Shown: positions 4,058-53,169 of the stretch, in pieces | Position numbering within the stretch: position 1 is the stretch's first letter | Layout of the letters: the number at the start of each line of letters is the position of its first letter | Source: a virus | Taxonomy: Duplodnaviria; Caudoviricetes | DNA: 64,000 nt | Virus record (IMG/VR): IMGVR_UViG_3300049021_000095 | Coordinates: 3,103-67,102 of that record | Strand: one strand, 5' to 3' | Notes under the pieces: model-generated | What the model saw: only the letters and a program-made list of their open reading frames with translations | Database searches by the model: none | Told to the model about the DNA's origin: nothing | Translations under genes and position numbers: made by a program

Positions 4058-4275
4058 AAATGTGCCGTTGCTGCCAGCGCCAAGCCCGCATCACCGAGTG
4101 CCGGGATATCCGCCCATGGGTGCTCCCGTACCTGTATGGCTTGGTCGCTGAGCACGAGTGTGGAGGCACGCTGGCCTTCCTCTTGTGGGAGCTCAGCGAC
4201 GAGCAGCTGCTCATCGACGACCAGCTGGTTGTCACGTCGAGCGAGCGCGACTCGCGAGCAACAGAAGCCGCCTAA
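4054..4275 (+). CDS. small Cys-containing hypothetical protein
   Basis: GTGA overlap with the upstream stop. Confidence 0.45.
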   Translation: MKMCRCCQRQARITECRDIRPWVLPYLYGLVAEHECGGTLAFLLWELSDEQLLIDDQLVVTSSERDSRATEAA

Positions 4276-4280
4276 GACAA

Positions 4281-4297
4281 CGCCCGCACGCGGGCCG
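4281..4297 (+). promoter_or_regulatory. Ro-binding-like hairpin next to the Ro60 ribosome-binding site
   Basis: C-GCCCG-CACG-CGGGC-C-G, the same stem and bulged C as the modules at 6071-6086 and 6290-6305; GGGAGA follows 3 nt later. Confidence 0.5.
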
Positions 4298-4311
4298 AAT
4301 GGGAGATAGCA

Positions 4312-5946
4312 ATGAAGTACGCGCAGCATTTCAATCCGAACGCGACGCCGCAGACCGAGCAGGCGGACACTCGACAGGTCGAAAACAACCAGGGCGGGTT
4401 CGTGTTCACGGTCGACAAGTGGAAGCGGCTCGAGCGGTTCCTGATACTTGGCAGCGAAGGCGGCAGCTACTACGCAACGGAGCGCAATCTCACCGTCGAG
4501 AACGCCAAGTGTGTTCAGGAGTGCTGCGCCGAGGATGGCGCCCGTGCGGTTCGTGTCATCACGGAGATCTCGGAGGCGGGTCGCGCGCCGAAGAATGACC
4601 CGGCGGTTTTCGCCCTGGCGCTTGCCGCGGCACACACGAACCCGGAGGCCAAGCGGGCGGCCCTGGCGGCGCTACCGCGCGTCTGCCGCATCGGGACCCA
4701 CCTGTTTCAGTTCGCAGAGGCAGTCAACCAGTACCGCGGCTGGGGGCGAGGCCTCCGAAAGGCCGTGGGCGCCTGGTATACGGGCAAGACTCCCGATCAA
4801 GTCGCGTTTCAGGTCGCCAAGTACGGCCAGCGCAACGGCTGGTCTCACCGCGACCTGCTGCGTCTCGCTCACCCGGAGCAGACAGCCGAGCTGGCCAGCG
4901 TGTTTCGCTACATCGTTGCTGGCATTGACGGCGGCGGGGATCGCCACGTGGTCAGCAAAGACAAGCCGTCGCGCGAATACCCGGATCCAGGAGCGCTGCC
5001 CGGGTTCCTTCATGCCTTCGAGGAGCTGAAAGGCGCCGACGAGAAGCGAACGATCGCGCTCATCGCGGAGCACGGCTTCACGCACGAGATGATTCCCTCC
5101 GAGCACAAGAACTCGGCGGCTGTTTGGGAGGCGTTGCTTGAGAAAATGCCACCGGGTGCCCTGATTCGGAACCTCGCGAAGATGACCGCCGTTGGTCTGT
5201 TGAGGCCGATGTCGGGCGCGATCTCGCTCGTAGCCGAGCGCCTGACGAACGAGACGGCGCTCAAGAAGGCGCGCGTCCACCCGATCGCGATGCTGTCGGC
5301 GCTGAAAGTCTACCAGCAAGGCCACGGGGATAAAGGTTCCCTGACATGGTCACCGGTTCCCCAGATCGTCGACGCCTTGGATGCGGGGTTCTACGCGGCG
5401 TTCGGCGCCATTGAGCCGAGCGGAAAACGGATGCTTCTGGCGCTGGACTGCTCGGCTTCGATGACTTGGCCGTCGTCGCAGATCGCCGGGCTGAAGATCA
5501 CAGCTCGGGAGGCATCGGCGTGTATGGCGCTGGTCACGGCACGGAGCGAGAAGAACTGGCACATCATGGGCTTCTCGACGTCGCTCGTCGACATCCCGAT
5601 CACTCCCAGGCAGCGGCTCGACGACGTGATCCAAACCATCGAGCGCGTGCATGCCGGTGGCACCGATTGCTCATTGCCGATGCTGTGGGCGTCTGGCGCC
5701 GACGTTGGCGTGGACATGTTCACCGTCTACACGGACAACGAAACCGCTCACGGTCGCGTGCATCCGTTCCAGGCGCTGAAGGCGTACCGCGCCAAGTCCG
5801 GAATCCAAAACGCGAAGCTCGCCGTCGTCGGCTGCGTCGCGAGCAACTTCACGATTGCAGATCCCACCGACGCCGGAATGCTCGACGTTGTTGGATTCGA
5901 CACGGCAGCACCGCAAGTGCTTGCCTCGTTTGCTGGAGGAGAGTAA
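4312..5946 (+). CDS. rsr: Ro60-related RNA-binding protein (TROVE + vWA domains)
   Basis: N-terminal QVENNQGGFVF..RLERFLILGSEGGSYY and HRDLLRLAH TROVE motifs; MIDAS LALDCSASM, GGTDCSLPM and YTDNET in the vWA domain. Confidence 0.96.
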   Translation: MKYAQHFNPNATPQTEQADTRQVENNQGGFVFTVDKWKRLERFLILGSEGGSYYATERNLTVENAKCVQECCAEDGARAVRVITEISEAGRAPKNDPAVFALALAAAHTNPEAKRAALAALPRVCRIGTHLFQFAEAVNQYRGWGRGLRKAVGAWYTGKTPDQVAFQVAKYGQRNGWSHRDLLRLAHPEQTAELASVFRYIVAGIDGGGDRHVVSKDKPSREYPDPGALPGFLHAFEELKGADEKRTIALIAEHGFTHEMIPSEHKNSAAVWEALLEKMPPGALIRNLAKMTAVGLLRPMSGAISLVAERLTNETALKKARVHPIAMLSALKVYQQGHGDKGSLTWSPVPQIVDALDAGFYAAFGAIEPSGKRMLLALDCSASMTWPSSQIAGLKITAREASACMALVTARSEKNWHIMGFSTSLVDIPITPRQRLDDVIQTIERVHAGGTDCSLPMLWASGADVGVDMFTVYTDNETAHGRVHPFQALKAYRAKSGIQNAKLAVVGCVASNFTIADPTDAGMLDVVGFDTAAPQVLASFAGGE

Positions 5947-5955
5947 GAATGTCGA

Positions 5956-6017
5956 GCGCGAGCCGAAGTCAACGGGTTACCCTTGTAAAGCACCCCGTCG
6001 GCGTTCCTTGTTCGCGC
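5956..6017 (+). ncRNA. minimal Y RNA module 1
   Basis: GCGCGAGC/GTTCGCGC terminal stem, bulged C, GAAG/TT, 5-nt bulge, ACGGG/CCCGT stem, loop starting TTAC; matches the Ro-binding bulged helix of Y RNAs. Confidence 0.8.
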
Positions 6018-6022
6018 GTATG

Positions 6023-6146
6023 TGCTCCGTCGTCTAATGGCAGGACGCTAAAACCCGGTGTAGGTAATTTGCCCGTTCGCGGGCCGCGCTGTGCCGGTTA
6101 CCATCTTCAAGGAAGAAATGCGGGTTCGAGTACCGCCGGAGCCGCC
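6023..6146 (+). ncRNA. tRNA-like Y RNA 1 (Ro-binding helix in place of the anticodon arm)
   Basis: acceptor GCTCCG/CGGAGC, D arm GTCTAATGGCAGGAC, T loop TTCGAGT; about 70 nt insert with TTTGCCCG-TTCG-CGGGC-C-G then CCGG-TTAC. Confidence 0.8.
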
Positions 6147-6217
6147 GAAGTCAGAGCCGAAGTCTACGGGTTATCTTTTTGGAAGAACCCTCCCGTTGAC
6201 ACCACTTGCTCGGCTTC
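6147..6217 (+). ncRNA. minimal Y RNA module 2
   Basis: GAGC-C-GAAGTC...GAC-ACCAC-TT-GCTC; ACGGG/CCCGT stem; loop starting TTAT. Confidence 0.85.
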
Positions 6218-6224
6218 TTGTTAC

Positions 6225-6361
6225 GGAACCAGTAGCTCAGTTGGTAGAGCAAAAGTATTCGCGAAAGCGATATCGGCCGCTCAGTCTTTGCCCGGAAACG
6301 GGCCGCAGAATGGTCGTTACCTGGAACTTTGGGTCGCGGGTTCGAGTCCCGCCTGGTTCCC
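6225..6361 (+). ncRNA. tRNA-like Y RNA 2 (Ro-binding helix inserted in the anticodon loop)
   Basis: 8-bp acceptor GGAACCAG/CTGGTTCC, canonical D arm, anticodon stem AAAGT/ACTTT, V loop GGGTC, perfect T arm; 69-nt insert with TTTGCCCG-GAAA-CGGGC-C-G and GGTCG-TTAC. Confidence 0.85.
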
Positions 6362-6362
6362 T

Positions 6363-6430
6363 GAGGCACGAGCCGAAGTCACGCGCTTATCAGGCTTGAA
6401 GAACGCGCGCGGCAACACTTGCTCGGCCTC
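6363..6430 (+). ncRNA. minimal Y RNA module 3
   Basis: GAGGC/GCCTC outer stem, GAGC-C-GAAGTC...GGC-AACAC-TT-GCTC, CGCGC/GCGCG stem, loop starting TTAT. Confidence 0.85.
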
Positions 6431-6454
6431 AATGTGTGCGACGGGGGCTGCGTA

Positions 6455-6664
6455 ATGGACCAAGCCGACCTCGAATACCTCGCCTCAACGCTCGCGGCGG
6501 AGCTGGACCTGCCGACGCTGCGCGACCGGTTTGCGGCGGCGGCCATGCAGGGCTTGTTGGCGTCGGCCAAAGACTTTGCGGGCACACCTGAGGACTTGGC
6601 GGCGATGGCTTACGAGCAGGCGGACGCGATGGTGGCTGAGCGCGGGCGGAAGGCGGGGAATTGA
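6455..6664 (+). CDS. conserved small phage protein
   Basis: TLRDRFAAAAMQG...AY.QADAM..ER motif, widespread in phage early regions. Confidence 0.75.
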   Translation: MDQADLEYLASTLAAELDLPTLRDRFAAAAMQGLLASAKDFAGTPEDLAAMAYEQADAMVAERGRKAGN

Positions 6665-30044: not shown

Positions 30045-31228
30045 CAGACGGCCGGCATGTAGTTGATCGAGATCGTGCCGAGCGTGATCTTGCCGAACGC
30101 AACGACACTGATATCGGCTGCCGGCAAGGACAGAGTGACGGTCTTACTGACGGTTTGACCGGCGACGGTTACCTGCCGGATTACGGACTCAATGTCGTTG
30201 AGTGGCACAACGTTGCTGGGGCCTGGGTAGAAGTCGTAGCCCCCGAGAGGGATACCCTTGATGAACTCGATGATTGCGGCTTCGGTTGCTGCCTGGAGAT
30301 CGGCTACCGAATAGGAGCCCTTGAAATAGACGGTGCCTGTGATGTTGAGCGGCGTCGCGGGTGCCGCGTCGACGATTGCCGTCTTGGGCGTGGCGGTCGA
30401 ACCGAAAACCCGAGCGTCAATGGCCGCCTGCGCGAGCGCGATGTCCCCGGCGCTGGCCGTCTCGAGATCGTTCGCCATCCAAACGTCGAACGTGCCGGCA
30501 CCCCGCGGGTTTTGACTGTCAACGGCTACGCCCGTGACAAGCTCGGTCGCGTTCAGGCAGATGTTGATGACCGCGTCGTCGATCAGCTCGTACTCGGTGA
30601 GTAGCGCCCACTTGGTCTTGTTGCGTGTGCGCAGGACCGGGTCGGCCTCTTCGTCTGTGCCGCTGCGCTCTACCAGGTCGCTCGTGACGGTGACCCCTGC
30701 GAGCGTGGTCAAGAGAGCCTTGACCGTGTCGGGCCCCTTGTTGCTGGCCGTCCCAGCGACCTCGGCCTCAAAGATCAGATCCGGTTGGCTGCCGCCGCTC
30801 ACCAGGGTGATCGGGAAGACCACCAATGGATCACCGTTGTCGATCAGCCGATACGTGGGTCCGTCAGGGTGCACGACCACAAGGTCGCTCTCGTCGAACG
30901 TGTGCGGGCCGGAGCCCGCCGCGCAGGTGAGCGTGATGCGTCGCTGGGCTGGTTGTGCGCCGTCTCGCTCGTTGTCGTAGTGGCTCCGCGAGAGCCGCGT
31001 GAGCGCCTCGCCCTTGGCCGTGTCGACGAGAGCTGACTCCTTGATGTAGACGGAAAGCTTGGAGGCCTGGTGCCCCACCTCCGCCGTCAGCTCGACGTGC
31101 GCCAGCGCGGGCTCGCCCTCTTGCCAGGACGTCGCTGTGTAGCCACCCGCATCAAGCTGATCGAGCAGCGATTGCTTGTAGTCGTCGTGCGAGATCTCGA
31201 CGACGTCAGCCCAATTGAGAGTGGCCAT
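30044..31228 (-). CDS. baseplate J-like protein
   Basis: DTAKGEALTRL, FEAEVAGTASN, GTDEEAD..LR.R, PRGAGTFDVW. Confidence 0.88.
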   Translation of the reverse strand: MATLNWADVVEISHDDYKQSLLDQLDAGGYTATSWQEGEPALAHVELTAEVGHQASKLSVYIKESALVDTAKGEALTRLSRSHYDNERDGAQPAQRRITLTCAAGSGPHTFDESDLVVVHPDGPTYRLIDNGDPLVVFPITLVSGGSQPDLIFEAEVAGTASNKGPDTVKALLTTLAGVTVTSDLVERSGTDEEADPVLRTRNKTKWALLTEYELIDDAVINICLNATELVTGVAVDSQNPRGAGTFDVWMANDLETASAGDIALAQAAIDARVFGSTATPKTAIVDAAPATPLNITGTVYFKGSYSVADLQAATEAAIIEFIKGIPLGGYDFYPGPSNVVPLNDIESVIRQVTVAGQTVSKTVTLSLPAADISVVAFGKITLGTISINYMPAV

Positions 31229-52055: not shown

Positions 52056-53083
52056 AGCTCCTCCTTGAACGCTTGTAGGTCCCTGGCGCGCGCCGGGGAC
52101 GGTTGCCTGGCCGTCGCGTACCAGGCCCGGTGCAGCGCCCGGACGTCGGCCGTGGCGGCGGCCAGCATGGCCTCCTTGCCCTCGCGCGTGAGCCCGCCGC
52201 GGCACAGCTTCACGAGCGCGATCTCGTCGTCCACGGTGTCACCGGCGGCAGCCAGGGTGGCCTGCTGGGCGCAAAGCGCCGCCTGTTGGTCTCGGAGTGG
52301 CCTGGAGCGAGCAACCAGGCCCGCAATCTTTCGGTCGATGTCGCCGCTTCGTAACCCCGCCAGGAACCGGGCGACGGCTCGGTGCGCCTCGACCGTTCTC
52401 TGCCAAGACCGCATGCGGTCAGCGTGCGCTGCTTGCCAGTCCTCGAAGATGCCGACCATTTTGACAGCTTGGCGCTCCGTTGGCCGGTTCAGATGAGGGA
52501 TAGGCGCTGCGGCGCGACTCAGCTTCCGGAGCTTCCTCAGCTCATCTTCGATTTCGGCCAACTCAGCCCTGACGGGATCGAGCGCAGCCTTTAGCTTAAT
52601 TCCGTCCGCCCCAGCATCGCGTTCGCGCCCCTTGGCCTGCCTCTGCCGCCACTTGTGGAGCACTACGCCGGCCAGCCCGCCTTGCCCCTCCCCGAAGTGG
52701 GCACGGATGGTCGGATCAGCGTGGGAAGTGCCGAGGTACTCCGCCAGCGCGGTTGCCTGGTGTTTGCGGTCCAAAACGCGCCAGCGCAGCTCAAGCTCAC
52801 GGATTTGGCCAACACGTCCATCGATCCCGCGTGTGTCGGTGGCGCCTAGCCTACGGAGCATTCGGAGGTTGGGATCCTCACCACCGCCGCTCGCGCCGCC
52901 GCGTTCGATGCTGGCTACCACCTGCGCGAAGTTGCCTGCCTGCCCGAGCTCCGACGCTGCCCCCATTAGGAGACGCTGCAACCGCGGACAGAACAGCTCG
53001 CGGTCGAGCGCGCCGCGCTGGTGCTGGTGATGTATGCCCGTGTCGTTGACGCTTGGAGTCGTGCTGGTCGTCGTCGCTTCCAT
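52040..53083 (-). CDS. hypothetical protein in a Q-like (late regulator) position
   Basis: 347 aa helical protein; GGGAG ribosome-binding site; function inferred from position only. Confidence 0.65.
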   Translation of the reverse strand: MEATTTSTTPSVNDTGIHHQHQRGALDRELFCPRLQRLLMGAASELGQAGNFAQVVASIERGGASGGGEDPNLRMLRRLGATDTRGIDGRVGQIRELELRWRVLDRKHQATALAEYLGTSHADPTIRAHFGEGQGGLAGVVLHKWRQRQAKGRERDAGADGIKLKAALDPVRAELAEIEDELRKLRKLSRAAAPIPHLNRPTERQAVKMVGIFEDWQAAHADRMRSWQRTVEAHRAVARFLAGLRSGDIDRKIAGLVARSRPLRDQQAALCAQQATLAAAGDTVDDEIALVKLCRGGLTREGKEAMLAAATADVRALHRAWYATARQPSPARARDLQAFKEELWGSR

Positions 53084-53169
53084 CGCTGCTCCCTTGACCG
53101 GCGCCTGTCCGGTCGTTCATGGTTCCGGTGAGGCTGGCGTCTCCCGGAGCCCTGGTTGCAGCGATGCGG

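What the first reader, a model, noticed from the sequence alone, without database searches (positions are those of the whole stretch)
6023..6361. Circularly permuted YrlA-like RNAs: free tRNA acceptor ends with the Ro-binding helix as the anticodon arm
Seen: both units keep normal tRNA order (acceptor, D arm, insert, T arm, acceptor). The insert holds the 3'-type Ro strand (TTT-GCCC), a stable tetraloop, then the 5'-type strand (GGGC-C-G) and TTAC. Established: in published YrlA the molecule ends form the Ro stem and the acceptor stem is closed by a loop, so this is the opposite permutation. Unit 2 has an eighth acceptor pair equivalent to G-1:C73, the tRNA-His identity element; unit 1 has a 1:72 mismatch. 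Inference: RNase P and 3' trimming could cut these units out and thereby release the flanking minimal Y RNAs (tRNA punctuation). CCA addition or charging could tether Ro60 to synthetases, EF-Tu or the ribosome.
Basis: partly seen in the sequence, partly recalled or inferred. Interest (0 to 1): 0.85.

Follow-up and report, generated by a model that had tools for sequence, protein, structure and literature searches.

The report
tRNA-ordered Y RNAs with capped Ro60 handle
Next to a phage's Ro60 gene lie two RNAs built like whole tRNAs with open acceptor ends that carry the Ro60-binding helix as a loop-capped side arm: the exact circular permutation of the known bacterial Y RNA YrlA, and one member of a widespread family that I found in no RNA catalogue or paper I could read.

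Summary
Downstream of a TROVE/vWA Ro60 gene (4312-5946) lie five RNAs. Three are ordinary Y-type hairpins. Two are tRNA-ordered units (6023-6146 and 6225-6360) in which a loop-capped Ro-type bulged helix sits where the anticodon arm belongs.

This is not a one-off. A pattern scan and a covariance model found about 90 such units beside Ro60 genes:
- in five phage contigs;
- in many metagenome contigs;
- in genomes of Sorangium, Chondromyces, Chloroflexales, Longimicrobium, Armatimonadota and Deinococcus.

The acceptor, D, T and handle stems all covary, and so does the tertiary 15:48 pair. The modules and linkers match canonical YrlA (mycobacteriophage ET08) one for one, but in permuted order. 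Rfam's YrlA model does not detect the units.

Most relatives also keep a full anticodon-like stem-loop, so the handle is really an insertion into the anticodon stem. Window unit 2 lacks that loop.

A genome that is very likely D. radiodurans has three such units between Yrn1 and rsr. They probably include the unexplained Rsr-associated RNAs a and b.

Not shown: the mature ends, Ro60 binding, CCA addition and His charging.

Verdict: a new variant of a known kind. The scan's earlier AI notes report similar handle-bearing tRNA mimics beside Ro60-like DUF2828 genes on other DNA.

The parts
4312..5946 (+). Ro60 (Rsr) gene, 544 aa, with TROVE and Ro60-type vWA domains. Presumed protein partner of the five RNAs.
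   Evidence: Pfam PF05731 (5e-53) and PF25045 (4.9e-62). PHROG 850 'RNA-binding protein'.
5956..6017 (+). Y hairpin 1, canonical topology: the termini form the bulged Ro helix (GAGC-C-GAAG with CUUGUUC) and GGUUAC sits at the loop entrance.
   Evidence: RNAfold z = -2.5. Rfam sbRNA (nematode Y RNA) RF01656 at 23.6 bits. Motif hit at 5960-5980.
6023..6146 (+). tRNA-ordered unit 1:
- acceptor 6023-6029 with 6137-6143 (1:72 mismatch);
- D arm 6032-6048;
- linker CUAAAA;
- capped handle 6054-6097 (UUUGCCCG, UUCG loop at 6076-6079, CGGGC-C-G);
- UUACC at 6098-6102, followed by an imperfect anticodon-like hairpin with an 8-nt loop;
- T arm 6120-6136 (G53.A61 mismatch);
- tail GCC.
   Evidence: R1 89.8 bits. 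The MFE fold reproduces all arms. Its counterpart L001:4782-4907 is cleaner and carries compensatory changes.
6147..6217 (+). Y hairpin 2, canonical topology (GAGCCGAAGUC ... ACUUGCUCGGC, with GGGUUAUC).
   Evidence: RF01656 at 31.3 bits, E = 2.4e-4. RNAfold z = -1.96. Motif hit at 6154-6174.
6225..6360 (+). tRNA-ordered unit 2:
- G-1 at 6225 paired with C73 at 6360;
- acceptor 6226-6232 with 6353-6359;
- D arm 6235-6250;
- anticodon stem 6252-6256 with 6326-6330, which closes a junction;
- in the junction, a GNRA hairpin at 6259-6270 and the capped handle at 6274-6316 (UUUGCCCG, GAAA loop at 6295-6298, CGGGC, bulged C at 6304);
- UUAC at 6317-6320;
- V loop 6331-6335;
- T arm 6336-6352.
   Evidence: Rfam tRNA 52.1 bits with a 66-nt insert. 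R1 97.6 bits. RNAfold z = -3.44, 0 of 200 shuffles as stable. Compensatory changes against L001:4982-5120 in the acceptor, anticodon stem, GNRA hairpin and T stem.
6362..6431 (+). Y hairpin 3, canonical topology (UGAGGC-ACGAGCCGAAGUC ... ACUUGCUCG-GCCUCA).
   Evidence: RNAfold z = -3.23. Motif hit at 6370-6390.
4282..4299 (+). Capped Ro-type hairpin GCCCG-CACG-CGGGC-C-GAA, just before the Shine-Dalgarno sequence GGGAGA of the Ro60 gene. It may be a Ro60 site on the gene's own mRNA. It is associated with the finding but not part of it.
   Evidence: Sequence. Partial R1 match at 4271-4303 of 11.7 bits, E = 0.59, not significant on its own.

Best explanation
The two units are Y RNAs of the YrlA type in a third topology. 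Each is a complete tRNA body in normal 5'-to-3' order whose 5' and 3' ends form the acceptor stem. The Ro60-binding module is a loop-capped arm at the anticodon position. That module consists of a bulged-C helix (UUUGCCCG with CGGGC-C-G), a covarying lower stem, and GUUAC exactly 10 nt after the helix.

Proposed mechanism:
1. The Ro60 gene and the five RNAs are transcribed together.
2. The tRNA-shaped units are recognised by RNase P at the 5' side and by the tRNA 3'-end machinery. This frees the units and also sets the ends of the three canonical Y hairpins between them.
3. Ro60 binds the capped handle.
4. The L-shaped body, with an open acceptor end that may receive CCA, is displayed as the effector module, as the tRNA-like domain is in YrlA.

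Shown here: the architecture, its conservation and covariation, its exclusive linkage to Ro60 genes, and its module-for-module equivalence to YrlA.

Inferred: co-transcription, the processing sites, Ro60 binding and the downstream partner.
For: Structure:
- RNAalifold and pair counts on 47 relatives give 94.4% paired cells against 72% in shuffles and 38-48% in slid controls.
- 22 of 28 pairs show compensatory changes. All 8 acceptor pairs and 8 of 9 handle-stem pairs are among them.
- A second alignment of 150 model matches gives 95.7% paired.
- The tertiary 15:48 pair covaries: G:C 29 and A:U 11 of 47, against 21.8 in shuffles, 0 of 5000 shuffles as high. U8 is present in 46 of 47 and A14 in 45 of 47.

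Handle:
- GCCCG with CGGGC and the U.G pair are almost invariant in 94 units.
- The three canonical Y hairpins of the same array carry the same motif with the same 10-nt spacing.

Linkage to Ro60:
- About 40 of 54 loci carry a Ro60 gene nearby; the rest are short contigs.
- In three whole genomes the strong model hits lie only at the Ro60 locus.

Homology to YrlA:
- The D and T arms equal the YrlA consensus.
- ET08 YrlA has the same modules and linkers in permuted order.

Processing:
- Gaps in the window are 0-7 nt.
- In bacteria the units are interleaved with ordinary tRNAs.
- CCA is encoded in 8 of 92 units, where chance would give about 1.4.
- M. smegmatis YrlA is cut by RNase P and receives CCA (PMC4201824).

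Expression:
- A genome that is very likely D. radiodurans has three units between Yrn1 and rsr. One has the T loop UGCAAGU, which lacks U55, the peculiarity reported for Rsr-associated RNA a (PMC4201824).
Against: - No mature end has been mapped for any member.
- Window unit 1 is degenerate: a 1:72 mismatch, a G53.A61 mismatch, no Rfam tRNA hit, and a fold z-score of 0.12.
- CCA is encoded much less often than in neighbouring tRNAs (9% against 34%).
- PMC4201824 says that D. radiodurans RNAs a, b and d bind Rsr less strongly than Yrn1. A capped helix may therefore be a weaker Ro60 site.
- The family was collected with a pattern that fixes the handle, so the invariance of the handle is partly built in. 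Model hits that do not fit the pattern, such as L122:6375-6508 and L122:6612-6742, lessen this bias.
- No promoter or terminator was detected.
Confidence: 0.65

Rival explanations
1. The real RNAs have ordinary YrlA topology or are two-piece molecules. In this reading the capping loop is cleaved, or transcription starts there, so the Ro helix has free ends as in known Y RNAs. The tRNA order in the DNA would then be only a matter of gene layout.
For: M. smegmatis YrlA exists in vivo mainly as two pieces after RNase P cleavage (PMC4201824). In multi-unit loci the handle strands of neighbouring units are similar enough to pair across units (L265).
Against: - In the window the acceptor 3' strand of unit 1 (CGGAGCC) and the acceptor 5' strand of unit 2 (GGAACCAG) are not complementary, and a whole Y hairpin lies between them.
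- Many loci hold a single unit.
- Acceptor pairs covary within units.
- The capping loops vary freely in sequence and length (3-7 nt), as a plain cap would.
Confidence: 0.1
2. The units serve mainly as processing punctuation: tRNA-shaped cutting marks that release the three canonical Y hairpins. In this reading their Ro-like insert has no function of its own.
For: The units alternate tightly with the Y hairpins. In D. radiodurans Yrn2, tRNA-Asp and Yrn1 come from one precursor (PMC4201824).
Against: - An ordinary tRNA would do that job.
- The handle is the most conserved part of the unit across phyla.
- Units occur without any adjacent Y hairpin and inside arrays of ordinary tRNAs.
Confidence: 0.1
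3. The units are tRNA genes interrupted by an intron-like insert. The insert is removed to give a decoding tRNA.
For: In most relatives, deleting the handle with its linkers leaves a perfect cloverleaf with a 7-nt loop of the form Y-U-NNN-R-N. RtcB ligase genes often accompany Ro60 genes (bioRxiv 10.1101/312249).
Against: - Window unit 2 and its relatives have no anticodon loop at all.
- The triplet changes between orthologous backbones (AAG, CAU, UCC, CAA, CAG, CUC, UUC), which does not fit a fixed amino-acid identity.
- The insert is not a group I intron, and bacteria have no known endonuclease for such inserts.
- No joint that skips the insert appeared in the RNA contigs laid (weak evidence).
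Confidence: 0.05
4. The units are decayed tRNA pseudogenes that picked up GC-rich palindromes by chance.
For: Unit 1 has several mismatches. ARAGORN finds no tRNA.
Against: About 90 homologous units in at least six phyla and in phages show compensatory changes in every stem and lie beside Ro60 genes.
Confidence: 0.02

Closest known systems
YrlA (Rfam RF02553; Salmonella Typhimurium, M. smegmatis, mycobacteriophages; Chen et al. 2014, PMC4201824; structure in Wang et al. 2018, bioRxiv 10.1101/312249)
   Same: - It lies beside Ro60 on the same strand.
- The D arm (GUAGCUCAG-UGGUAGAGC) and T arm (GCGGGUUCGAnUCCCGC) sequences are the same.
- The handle is of the same kind: a GNCGA-type 5' strand, a lower stem, then UUAC (YUAY).
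- The linker after the D arm (N26, N27-N28, UAAACG) is the same.
- The short hairpin before AGGUC and the T arm is the same.
   Different: - The order is circularly permuted. Here the acceptor is open and the Ro helix is capped. In YrlA the Ro helix is formed by the termini and the acceptor is capped.
- The Rfam YrlA model gives only 14-16 bits here.
- My model gives only 25-30 bits on ET08 YrlA.
[quoted passage not shown]
   Same: It has a free tRNA-like acceptor end with a 7-bp stem on a Ro60-bound tRNA mimic. It is the nearest functional precedent.
   Different: That RNA becomes two pieces, with both the acceptor and the Ro stem open. The units here would be a single chain closed at the Ro end.
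D. radiodurans Yrn1 (Rfam RF01053) and the unclassified RNAs a, b and d upstream of rsr
   Same: - They belong to the same locus type.
- Three model matches lie between Yrn1 and rsr in the genome that best matches RF01053.
- One of them has the T loop without U55 that is reported for RNA a.
   Different: - In Yrn1 the Ro stem takes the place of the acceptor stem and an anticodon-like arm is closed.
- RNAs a, b and d were never given a tRNA-ordered structure in the text I could read.
- Their identity with my matches is inferred and not checked against published coordinates.
Canonical Y RNAs and nematode sbRNAs (Rfam RF00019, RF01656)
   Same: They share the bulged-C helix and the UUAUC/UUAC motif. 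The three flanking hairpins of the window, and their relatives, even match RF01656 (31 bits here; 41-53 bits in L136, L247 and L263).
   Different: They have no tRNA body. The helix is always formed by the termini.
b7a-tRNA (Burroughs and Aravind 2016, as cited in bioRxiv 10.1101/312249)
   Same: It is a predicted tRNA-like ncRNA of RNA-repair loci that is occasionally found beside Rsr.
   Different: It is described as closely resembling an authentic tRNA and as the partner of a Band-7 protein. No Ro handle is mentioned in the citing text. The paper itself (PMC5062991) was not available to me, so an overlap cannot be excluded.

Membership tests
YrlA (RF02553) | Encoded within about 4 kb of a Ro60/TROVE gene, on the same strand | tested here: met
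   The units start 77 and 279 nt after the Ro60 stop codon, on the same strand.
YrlA (RF02553) | tRNA-like domain with the nearly invariant D and T arm sequences | tested here: met
   Unit 2's D arm GUAGCUCAGUUGGUAGAGC and T arm GCGGGUUCGAGUCCCGC match the Rfam consensus and ET08 YrlA. U8, A14 and the 15:48 pair are conserved.
YrlA (RF02553) | T arm lies 5' of the D arm, with the acceptor-like stem closed by a loop | tested here: not met
   The D arm lies 5' of the T arm. The acceptor is formed by the two ends of the unit, and 8 of 8 pairs covary.
YrlA (RF02553) | Ro60-binding stem formed by the 5' and 3' termini, with GNCGAAN0-1G near the 5' end | tested here: not met
   The helix is internal and capped by UUCG or GAAA. 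The 5'-type strand reads GGGCCGCGC or GGGCCGCAG here. Many relatives have GCCGAAG.
YrlA (RF02553) | Rfam gathering score of 69 bits | tested here: not met
   The best scores are 15.9 and 14.3 bits. There is no YrlA hit at gathering score in 19 related loci.
tRNA (RF00005) | Cloverleaf that passes the model's gathering score of 29 bits | tested here: met
   Unit 2 scores 52.1 bits. Unit 1 does not pass. Many relatives score 37-59 bits.
tRNA (RF00005) | Anticodon arm with a 5-bp stem and a 7-nt loop that can decode | tested here: not met
   In unit 2 the loop is replaced by a 69-nt insert. Unit 1 has an 8-nt loop on a stem with an A.A mismatch. ARAGORN calls nothing.
Y RNA (Ro60 ligand) | Conserved helix with a bulged C (5' GGNC-C-GA, 3' UU-GNCC) | tested here: met
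   The helix is CGGGC-C-G with UUUGCCCG in both units. It is nearly invariant in 94 units, with the U.G pair in 80 of 94.
Y RNA (Ro60 ligand) | Physical binding to Ro60 | not testable with these tools
   The only support is indirect: linkage to Ro60 genes and the report that D. radiodurans RNAs a, b and d bind Rsr weakly (PMC4201824).
tRNA-His identity | G-1:C73 extra base pair | tested here: met
   G6225 pairs with C6360 in unit 2. Across the family, 17 of 47 units have it in the MAFFT alignment and 35 of 92 in the model-fitted alignment, against 5 of 58 neighbouring tRNAs. Unit 1 does not have it.
tRNA-His identity | GUG anticodon and actual charging by HisRS | not testable with these tools
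   Unit 2 has no anticodon loop. Charging needs a bench assay.

The most novel reading that the evidence does not exclude
A third, so far undescribed topology of bacterial and phage Y RNA. These would be complete tRNA bodies that are matured like tRNAs (RNase P cut, CCA end, often G-1:C73). In most lineages they carry a full anticodon-like loop whose triplet changes freely. A capped Ro60 handle is inserted in the anticodon stem.

Such RNAs would couple Ro60 directly to tRNA-handling machinery. They could act as decoys or sensors for anticodon nucleases, or as adaptors to synthetases or repair enzymes.

They would explain the D. radiodurans RNAs a and b. They would also be the form from which YrlA arose, by tandem duplication followed by loss of the outer ends.
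Probability: 0.45. Interest if true: 0.82.

Novelty: new variant of a known kind. Interest (0 to 1): 0.72.

Why it matters
- Y RNAs are defined by a Ro-binding stem made from their own termini. Here the same handle is internal and capped, and the free ends belong to a tRNA acceptor stem. The RNA can therefore enter tRNA pathways (RNase P, the CCA enzyme, perhaps a synthetase) while carrying Ro60.
- The family is widespread, in at least six bacterial phyla and in phages. The Rfam YrlA model misses it. tRNA finders call it partly and wrongly: ARAGORN makes Met, Asn, Trp, Lys and even 'Stop' calls on the 3' two thirds of some units.
- It gives a concrete structure for the D. radiodurans Rsr-associated RNAs whose predicted structures PMC4201824 called unlike other Y RNAs.
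- It offers a simple route to YrlA. Two tandem copies give T arm, closed acceptor and D arm flanked by the two handle strands, with complementarity built in.
- It makes the open question of what the tRNA-like domain of bacterial Y RNAs does testable in culturable hosts such as Sorangium, Chondromyces and Deinococcus.

Tried and rejected
- A first loose pattern (TTGCCCG-N4-CGGGCCG) in viral contigs gave over 119 mostly chance hits and was dropped.
- L002, a phage contig whose Ro60 is 52% identical, has no such RNA downstream. Its upstream side is missing.
- RNA-seq. Runs that hold the Sorangium So ce56 locus are kept only as assembled contigs. Three runs of one root-metagenome study and one run of another study were laid on the locus.
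  - Two of the root-metagenome runs hold 116-nt contigs at L265:6511-6626, almost exactly the unit (6506-6628).
  - Other contigs overlap both ends, and breaks at conserved tRNA words are expected in such assemblies. I take this as no more than a weak hint.
  - Some contigs there carry the canonical T arm, closed acceptor, D arm order. They come from other organisms.
- blastn of the whole RNA array against cultured phage records gave no match.
- No sigma-70 promoter or intrinsic terminator was found around the array.
- The weak model hits at window 30186-30302 (19 bits) and 53047-53144 (12 bits); the first, which I read, looks like coding DNA, the second I did not examine. I set both aside.
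- Test of whether each unit derives from the local tRNA with the same triplet: rejected. Unit bodies are 80-99% like units of other genomes and only 60-74% like local tRNAs.
- Papers that might already describe this topology could not be opened: Burroughs and Aravind 2016 (PMC5062991), Sim et al. 2020 (PMC10870794) and Chen et al. 2000 (PMC316496).
- The supplements of PMC4201824 are not held. I therefore could not see what that study reported for Sorangium or Chloroflexi.

Full report
**What is in the window**

A 544-aa Ro60 protein with TROVE and Ro60-type vWA domains is encoded at 4312-5946. Ten bases after its stop codon begins a 480-nt non-coding stretch. Three segments of it (5956-6017, 6147-6217, 6362-6431) are ordinary Y-type hairpins:
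- their termini form a bulged helix, GAGC-C-GAAG paired with CUUGCUC;
- GGUUAY sits at the loop entrance;
- they fold better than shuffles;
- two of them match the nematode Y-RNA family RF01656 below its threshold.

Between them lie the two units of the finding.

Unit 2 (6225-6360) scores 52.1 bits on Rfam's tRNA model. All 71 model positions are matched, and 66 extra bases sit in the anticodon loop. Read directly, it consists of:
- G-1 and a 7-bp acceptor stem;
- U8, A9 and a D arm GCUC-AGUUGGUA-GAGC;
- a 5-bp anticodon stem, AAAGU with ACUUU;
- V loop GGGUC and T arm GCGGG-UUCGAGU-CCCGC;
- C73.

Inside the anticodon stem lie a small GNRA hairpin, a long arm and UUAC. The tip of the long arm is UUUGCCCG-GAAA-CGGGC-C-G.

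Unit 1 (6023-6146) has the same order. Its cap is UUCG. It has a U1.C72 mismatch, a G53.A61 mismatch and a tail GCC.

The strand after the cap (GGGC-C-G) is the type that sits at the 5' end of Y RNAs. The strand before the cap (UUUGCCC) is the 3'-end type.

The motif GRGCCG-N10-STTAY occurs five times in the 64-kb window, all within this array. Shuffles give 0.18. The capped arms thus carry the same module, with the same spacing, as the three canonical hairpins.

ARAGORN calls no tRNA. Rfam's YrlA model reaches only 14-16 bits.

**It is conserved**

A phage contig whose Ro60 is 58% identical (L001) has the same array. Both of its units show compensatory changes against the window:

| Element | Window | L001 |
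|---|---|---|
| Acceptor stem | GGAACCAG / CUGGUUCC | GGAAGCGG / CCGCUUCC |
| Anticodon stem | AAAGU / ACUUU | AAAGA / UCUUU |
| GNRA hairpin | UCGC / GCGA | UCCC / GGGA |
| T stem | GCGGG / CCCGC | GCAGG / CCUGC |

A pattern taken from the shared handle found three more phage contigs, 97 metagenome stretches and 62 stretches in species-representative genomes. About half to two thirds of these are real units.

On 47 non-redundant units:
- RNAalifold predicts an 8-pair acceptor stem, the D stem, a 9-bp lower stem of the handle and the T stem;
- 94.4% of cells pair, against 72% after shuffling and 38-48% when partners are slid;
- 22 of 28 pairs show changes on both sides.

My selection script did require acceptor complementarity. 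However, it searched 115 upstream positions, and in all 47 units the strand it found abuts the D arm in the tRNA register. Chance would not give that.

The tertiary 15:48 pair covaries: 40 of 47 units are compatible, against 21.8 in shuffles.

A covariance model (R1) then found about 92 handle-bearing units in 67 sources. Some do not fit the search pattern, for example two further units in phage contig L122. Up to five units occur per locus. On that larger alignment 95.7% of cells pair, and the helix GCCCG/CGGGC varies only by C:G to U:G.

**Linkage to Ro60**

About 40 of 54 loci carry a Ro60 gene 48-58% identical to the window's. The others are short contigs.

In the whole genomes of Sorangium cellulosum So ce56, Chondromyces apiculatus and a Deinococcus MAG, strong R1 hits lie only at the Ro60 locus. 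In Deinococcus, 17 of 41 genomes carry one to three clustered units.

**Relation to YrlA**

Chen et al. 2014 (PMC4201824), Wang et al. 2018 (bioRxiv 10.1101/312249) and the Rfam structure line all describe YrlA in this order:
- Ro stem made of the termini;
- YUAY and a V hairpin;
- T arm;
- acceptor-like stem closed by a loop;
- D arm;
- back to the Ro stem.

I read the canonical YrlA of mycobacteriophage ET08:
- GGCAGGCCGAGAG;
- lower stem;
- UUACC;
- CUC[AUUGAAA]GAG, then AG;
- AGGUC;
- T arm;
- closed acceptor;
- UA and the D arm;
- G, CU, then UAAACG;
- lower stem;
- 3' Ro strand.

The tRNA-ordered units contain the same modules and even the same linkers: N26, N27-N28, UAA(A)CG before the handle, and UUACC after it. 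The two forms are exact circular permutations of each other. Each model is blind to the other form. R1 gives 25-30 bits on ET08, and RF02553 gives 14-16 bits here.

The papers I could read describe two topologies: YrlA, and Yrn1, in which the Ro stem stands in the acceptor position. They also describe a two-piece M. smegmatis YrlA made by RNase P and CCA addition. None describes a single-chain, tRNA-ordered form with a capped handle. Three papers that might do so were not available (see Tried and rejected).

In most relatives UUACC is followed by CCG[CUNNNAA]CGG-GG-AGGUC. The two bases after position 26 pair with the GG, and this pairing covaries: CC/GG, CG/CG, CU/AG, GC/GC, UC/GA.

The RNA therefore has a complete 5-bp anticodon stem and a 7-nt loop with Y32, U33, R37. 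The handle bulges from the 5' strand of that stem.

The triplet differs between orthologous backbones and between the units of one locus. G36 tends to come with G37.

Three architectures can be told apart:
- Window unit 1 and L001 unit 1 are of the kind just described. The window copy is imperfect.
- In window unit 2, L001 unit 2, L122:6157 and several Longimicrobium units, the anticodon stem instead closes around the handle, and no anticodon-like loop remains.
- Shorter forms without a D arm also exist (Sorangium, Deinococcus).

Unit bodies resemble units of other genomes (80-99%) far more than local tRNAs (60-74%). They form a lineage of their own.

**Processing and expression**

In the window, gaps between elements are 0-7 nt.

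In Polyangiaceae, Chondromyces, Chloroflexaceae and Sorangium, the Ro60 gene sits in arrays of 10-32 tRNA genes, with units interleaved at tRNA-like spacing. Maturation of the neighbours would by itself free the unit ends.

CCA is encoded in 8 of 92 units, which is more than chance but less than in neighbouring tRNAs (20 of 58). G-1:C73 is the commonest state, in 35 of 92 units against 5 of 58 tRNAs (this alignment is fitted to the model).

The genome with the best Yrn1 match is very likely D. radiodurans: 163 bits, and the family rings only in D. radiodurans among the named controls. It has three R1 matches between Yrn1 and rsr. One of them has the T loop UGCAAGU, which lacks U55. PMC4201824 reports exactly this peculiarity for RNA a, one of the UV-induced, weakly Rsr-bound RNAs whose structure was left open. 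This suggests that members of the class are expressed as discrete RNAs and touch Rsr. I could not compare coordinates.

RNA contigs from a root metagenome give only a weak hint.

**Verdict**

Excision by the tRNA machinery is plausible but not shown. His charging, and tethering to the translation apparatus, remain speculative.

The thing is a new variant of a known kind, the Y RNA of YrlA type. It is widespread and absent from Rfam.

It also suggests how YrlA arose. Two tandem copies, trimmed to the stretch from one handle to the next, give YrlA, with the complementarity of the acceptor and of the Ro stem built in.

Earlier AI notes of this scan report handle-bearing tRNA-shaped RNAs beside Ro60-like DUF2828 genes on other DNA. 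I did not test those.

Noticed in passing
window 4282-4299: A capped Ro-type hairpin (GCCCG-CACG-CGGGC-C-GAA) ends 4 nt before the GGGAGA Shine-Dalgarno sequence of the Ro60 gene. It could let Ro60 bind its own mRNA. R1 gives only a partial match of 11.7 bits.
   Followed up: partly
L136, L142, L132, L187, L245, L259, L244, L280 and others (units listed): In most relatives the unit keeps an anticodon-like 7-nt loop (Y-U-NNN-R-N). Its triplet differs between otherwise near-identical backbones (AAG, CAU, UCC, CAA, CAG, CUC, UUC), and G36 goes with G37. This looks like interchangeable anticodon-loop displays and hints at a decoy or sensor role.
   Followed up: partly
L237 2180-7742; L284 573-5013; L259 2903-6543; L265 5250-6775: In Polyangiaceae, Chondromyces, Chloroflexaceae and Sorangium the Ro60 gene is embedded in arrays of 10-32 tRNA genes that cover most amino acids, with handle-bearing units interleaved.
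   Followed up: partly
L297 (G081:C1:1270406-1273531), minus strand: 1346-1249, 1121-986, 971-827: There are three handle-bearing units between Yrn1 (1626-1501) and rsr in the genome that is very likely D. radiodurans. The middle one has the T loop UGCAAGU, without U55, as reported for 'RNA a'.
   Followed up: partly
L136 2656-2721; L247 3329-3398 and 4162-4233; L263 5455-5520: Bacterial Y hairpins beside these units pass the gathering score of the nematode sbRNA family RF01656 (41-53 bits against 38). This is a cross-kingdom match. It reflects the shared Ro helix and UUAUC motif and could cause wrong automatic annotation.
   Followed up: no
L237 5093-5165; L245 5586-5657; L271 5200-5266; L288 4792-4857; L282 4201-4271; L259 3314-3414: ARAGORN calls the 3' two thirds of some units as tRNAs (Asn, Met, Trp, Lys, and 'Stop' with anticodon tta). 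Such calls in genome annotations are probably artefacts of this RNA class.
   Followed up: partly
L265 6784-6889 (minus strand); L249 3091-3196; L248 2253-2358; L255 5963-6068: Shorter relatives of about 105 nt occur in Sorangium. They have a capped handle followed by UUCUCG and a T arm, but no D arm (38-44 bits with R1).
   Followed up: no
L265 6510-6626, RNA contigs of runs X1 and X3 (table 5c): Root-metagenome RNA contigs join a T-arm segment to a D-arm segment through 10-16 other letters. That is the canonical YrlA order and must come from other organisms in the same samples.
   Followed up: no
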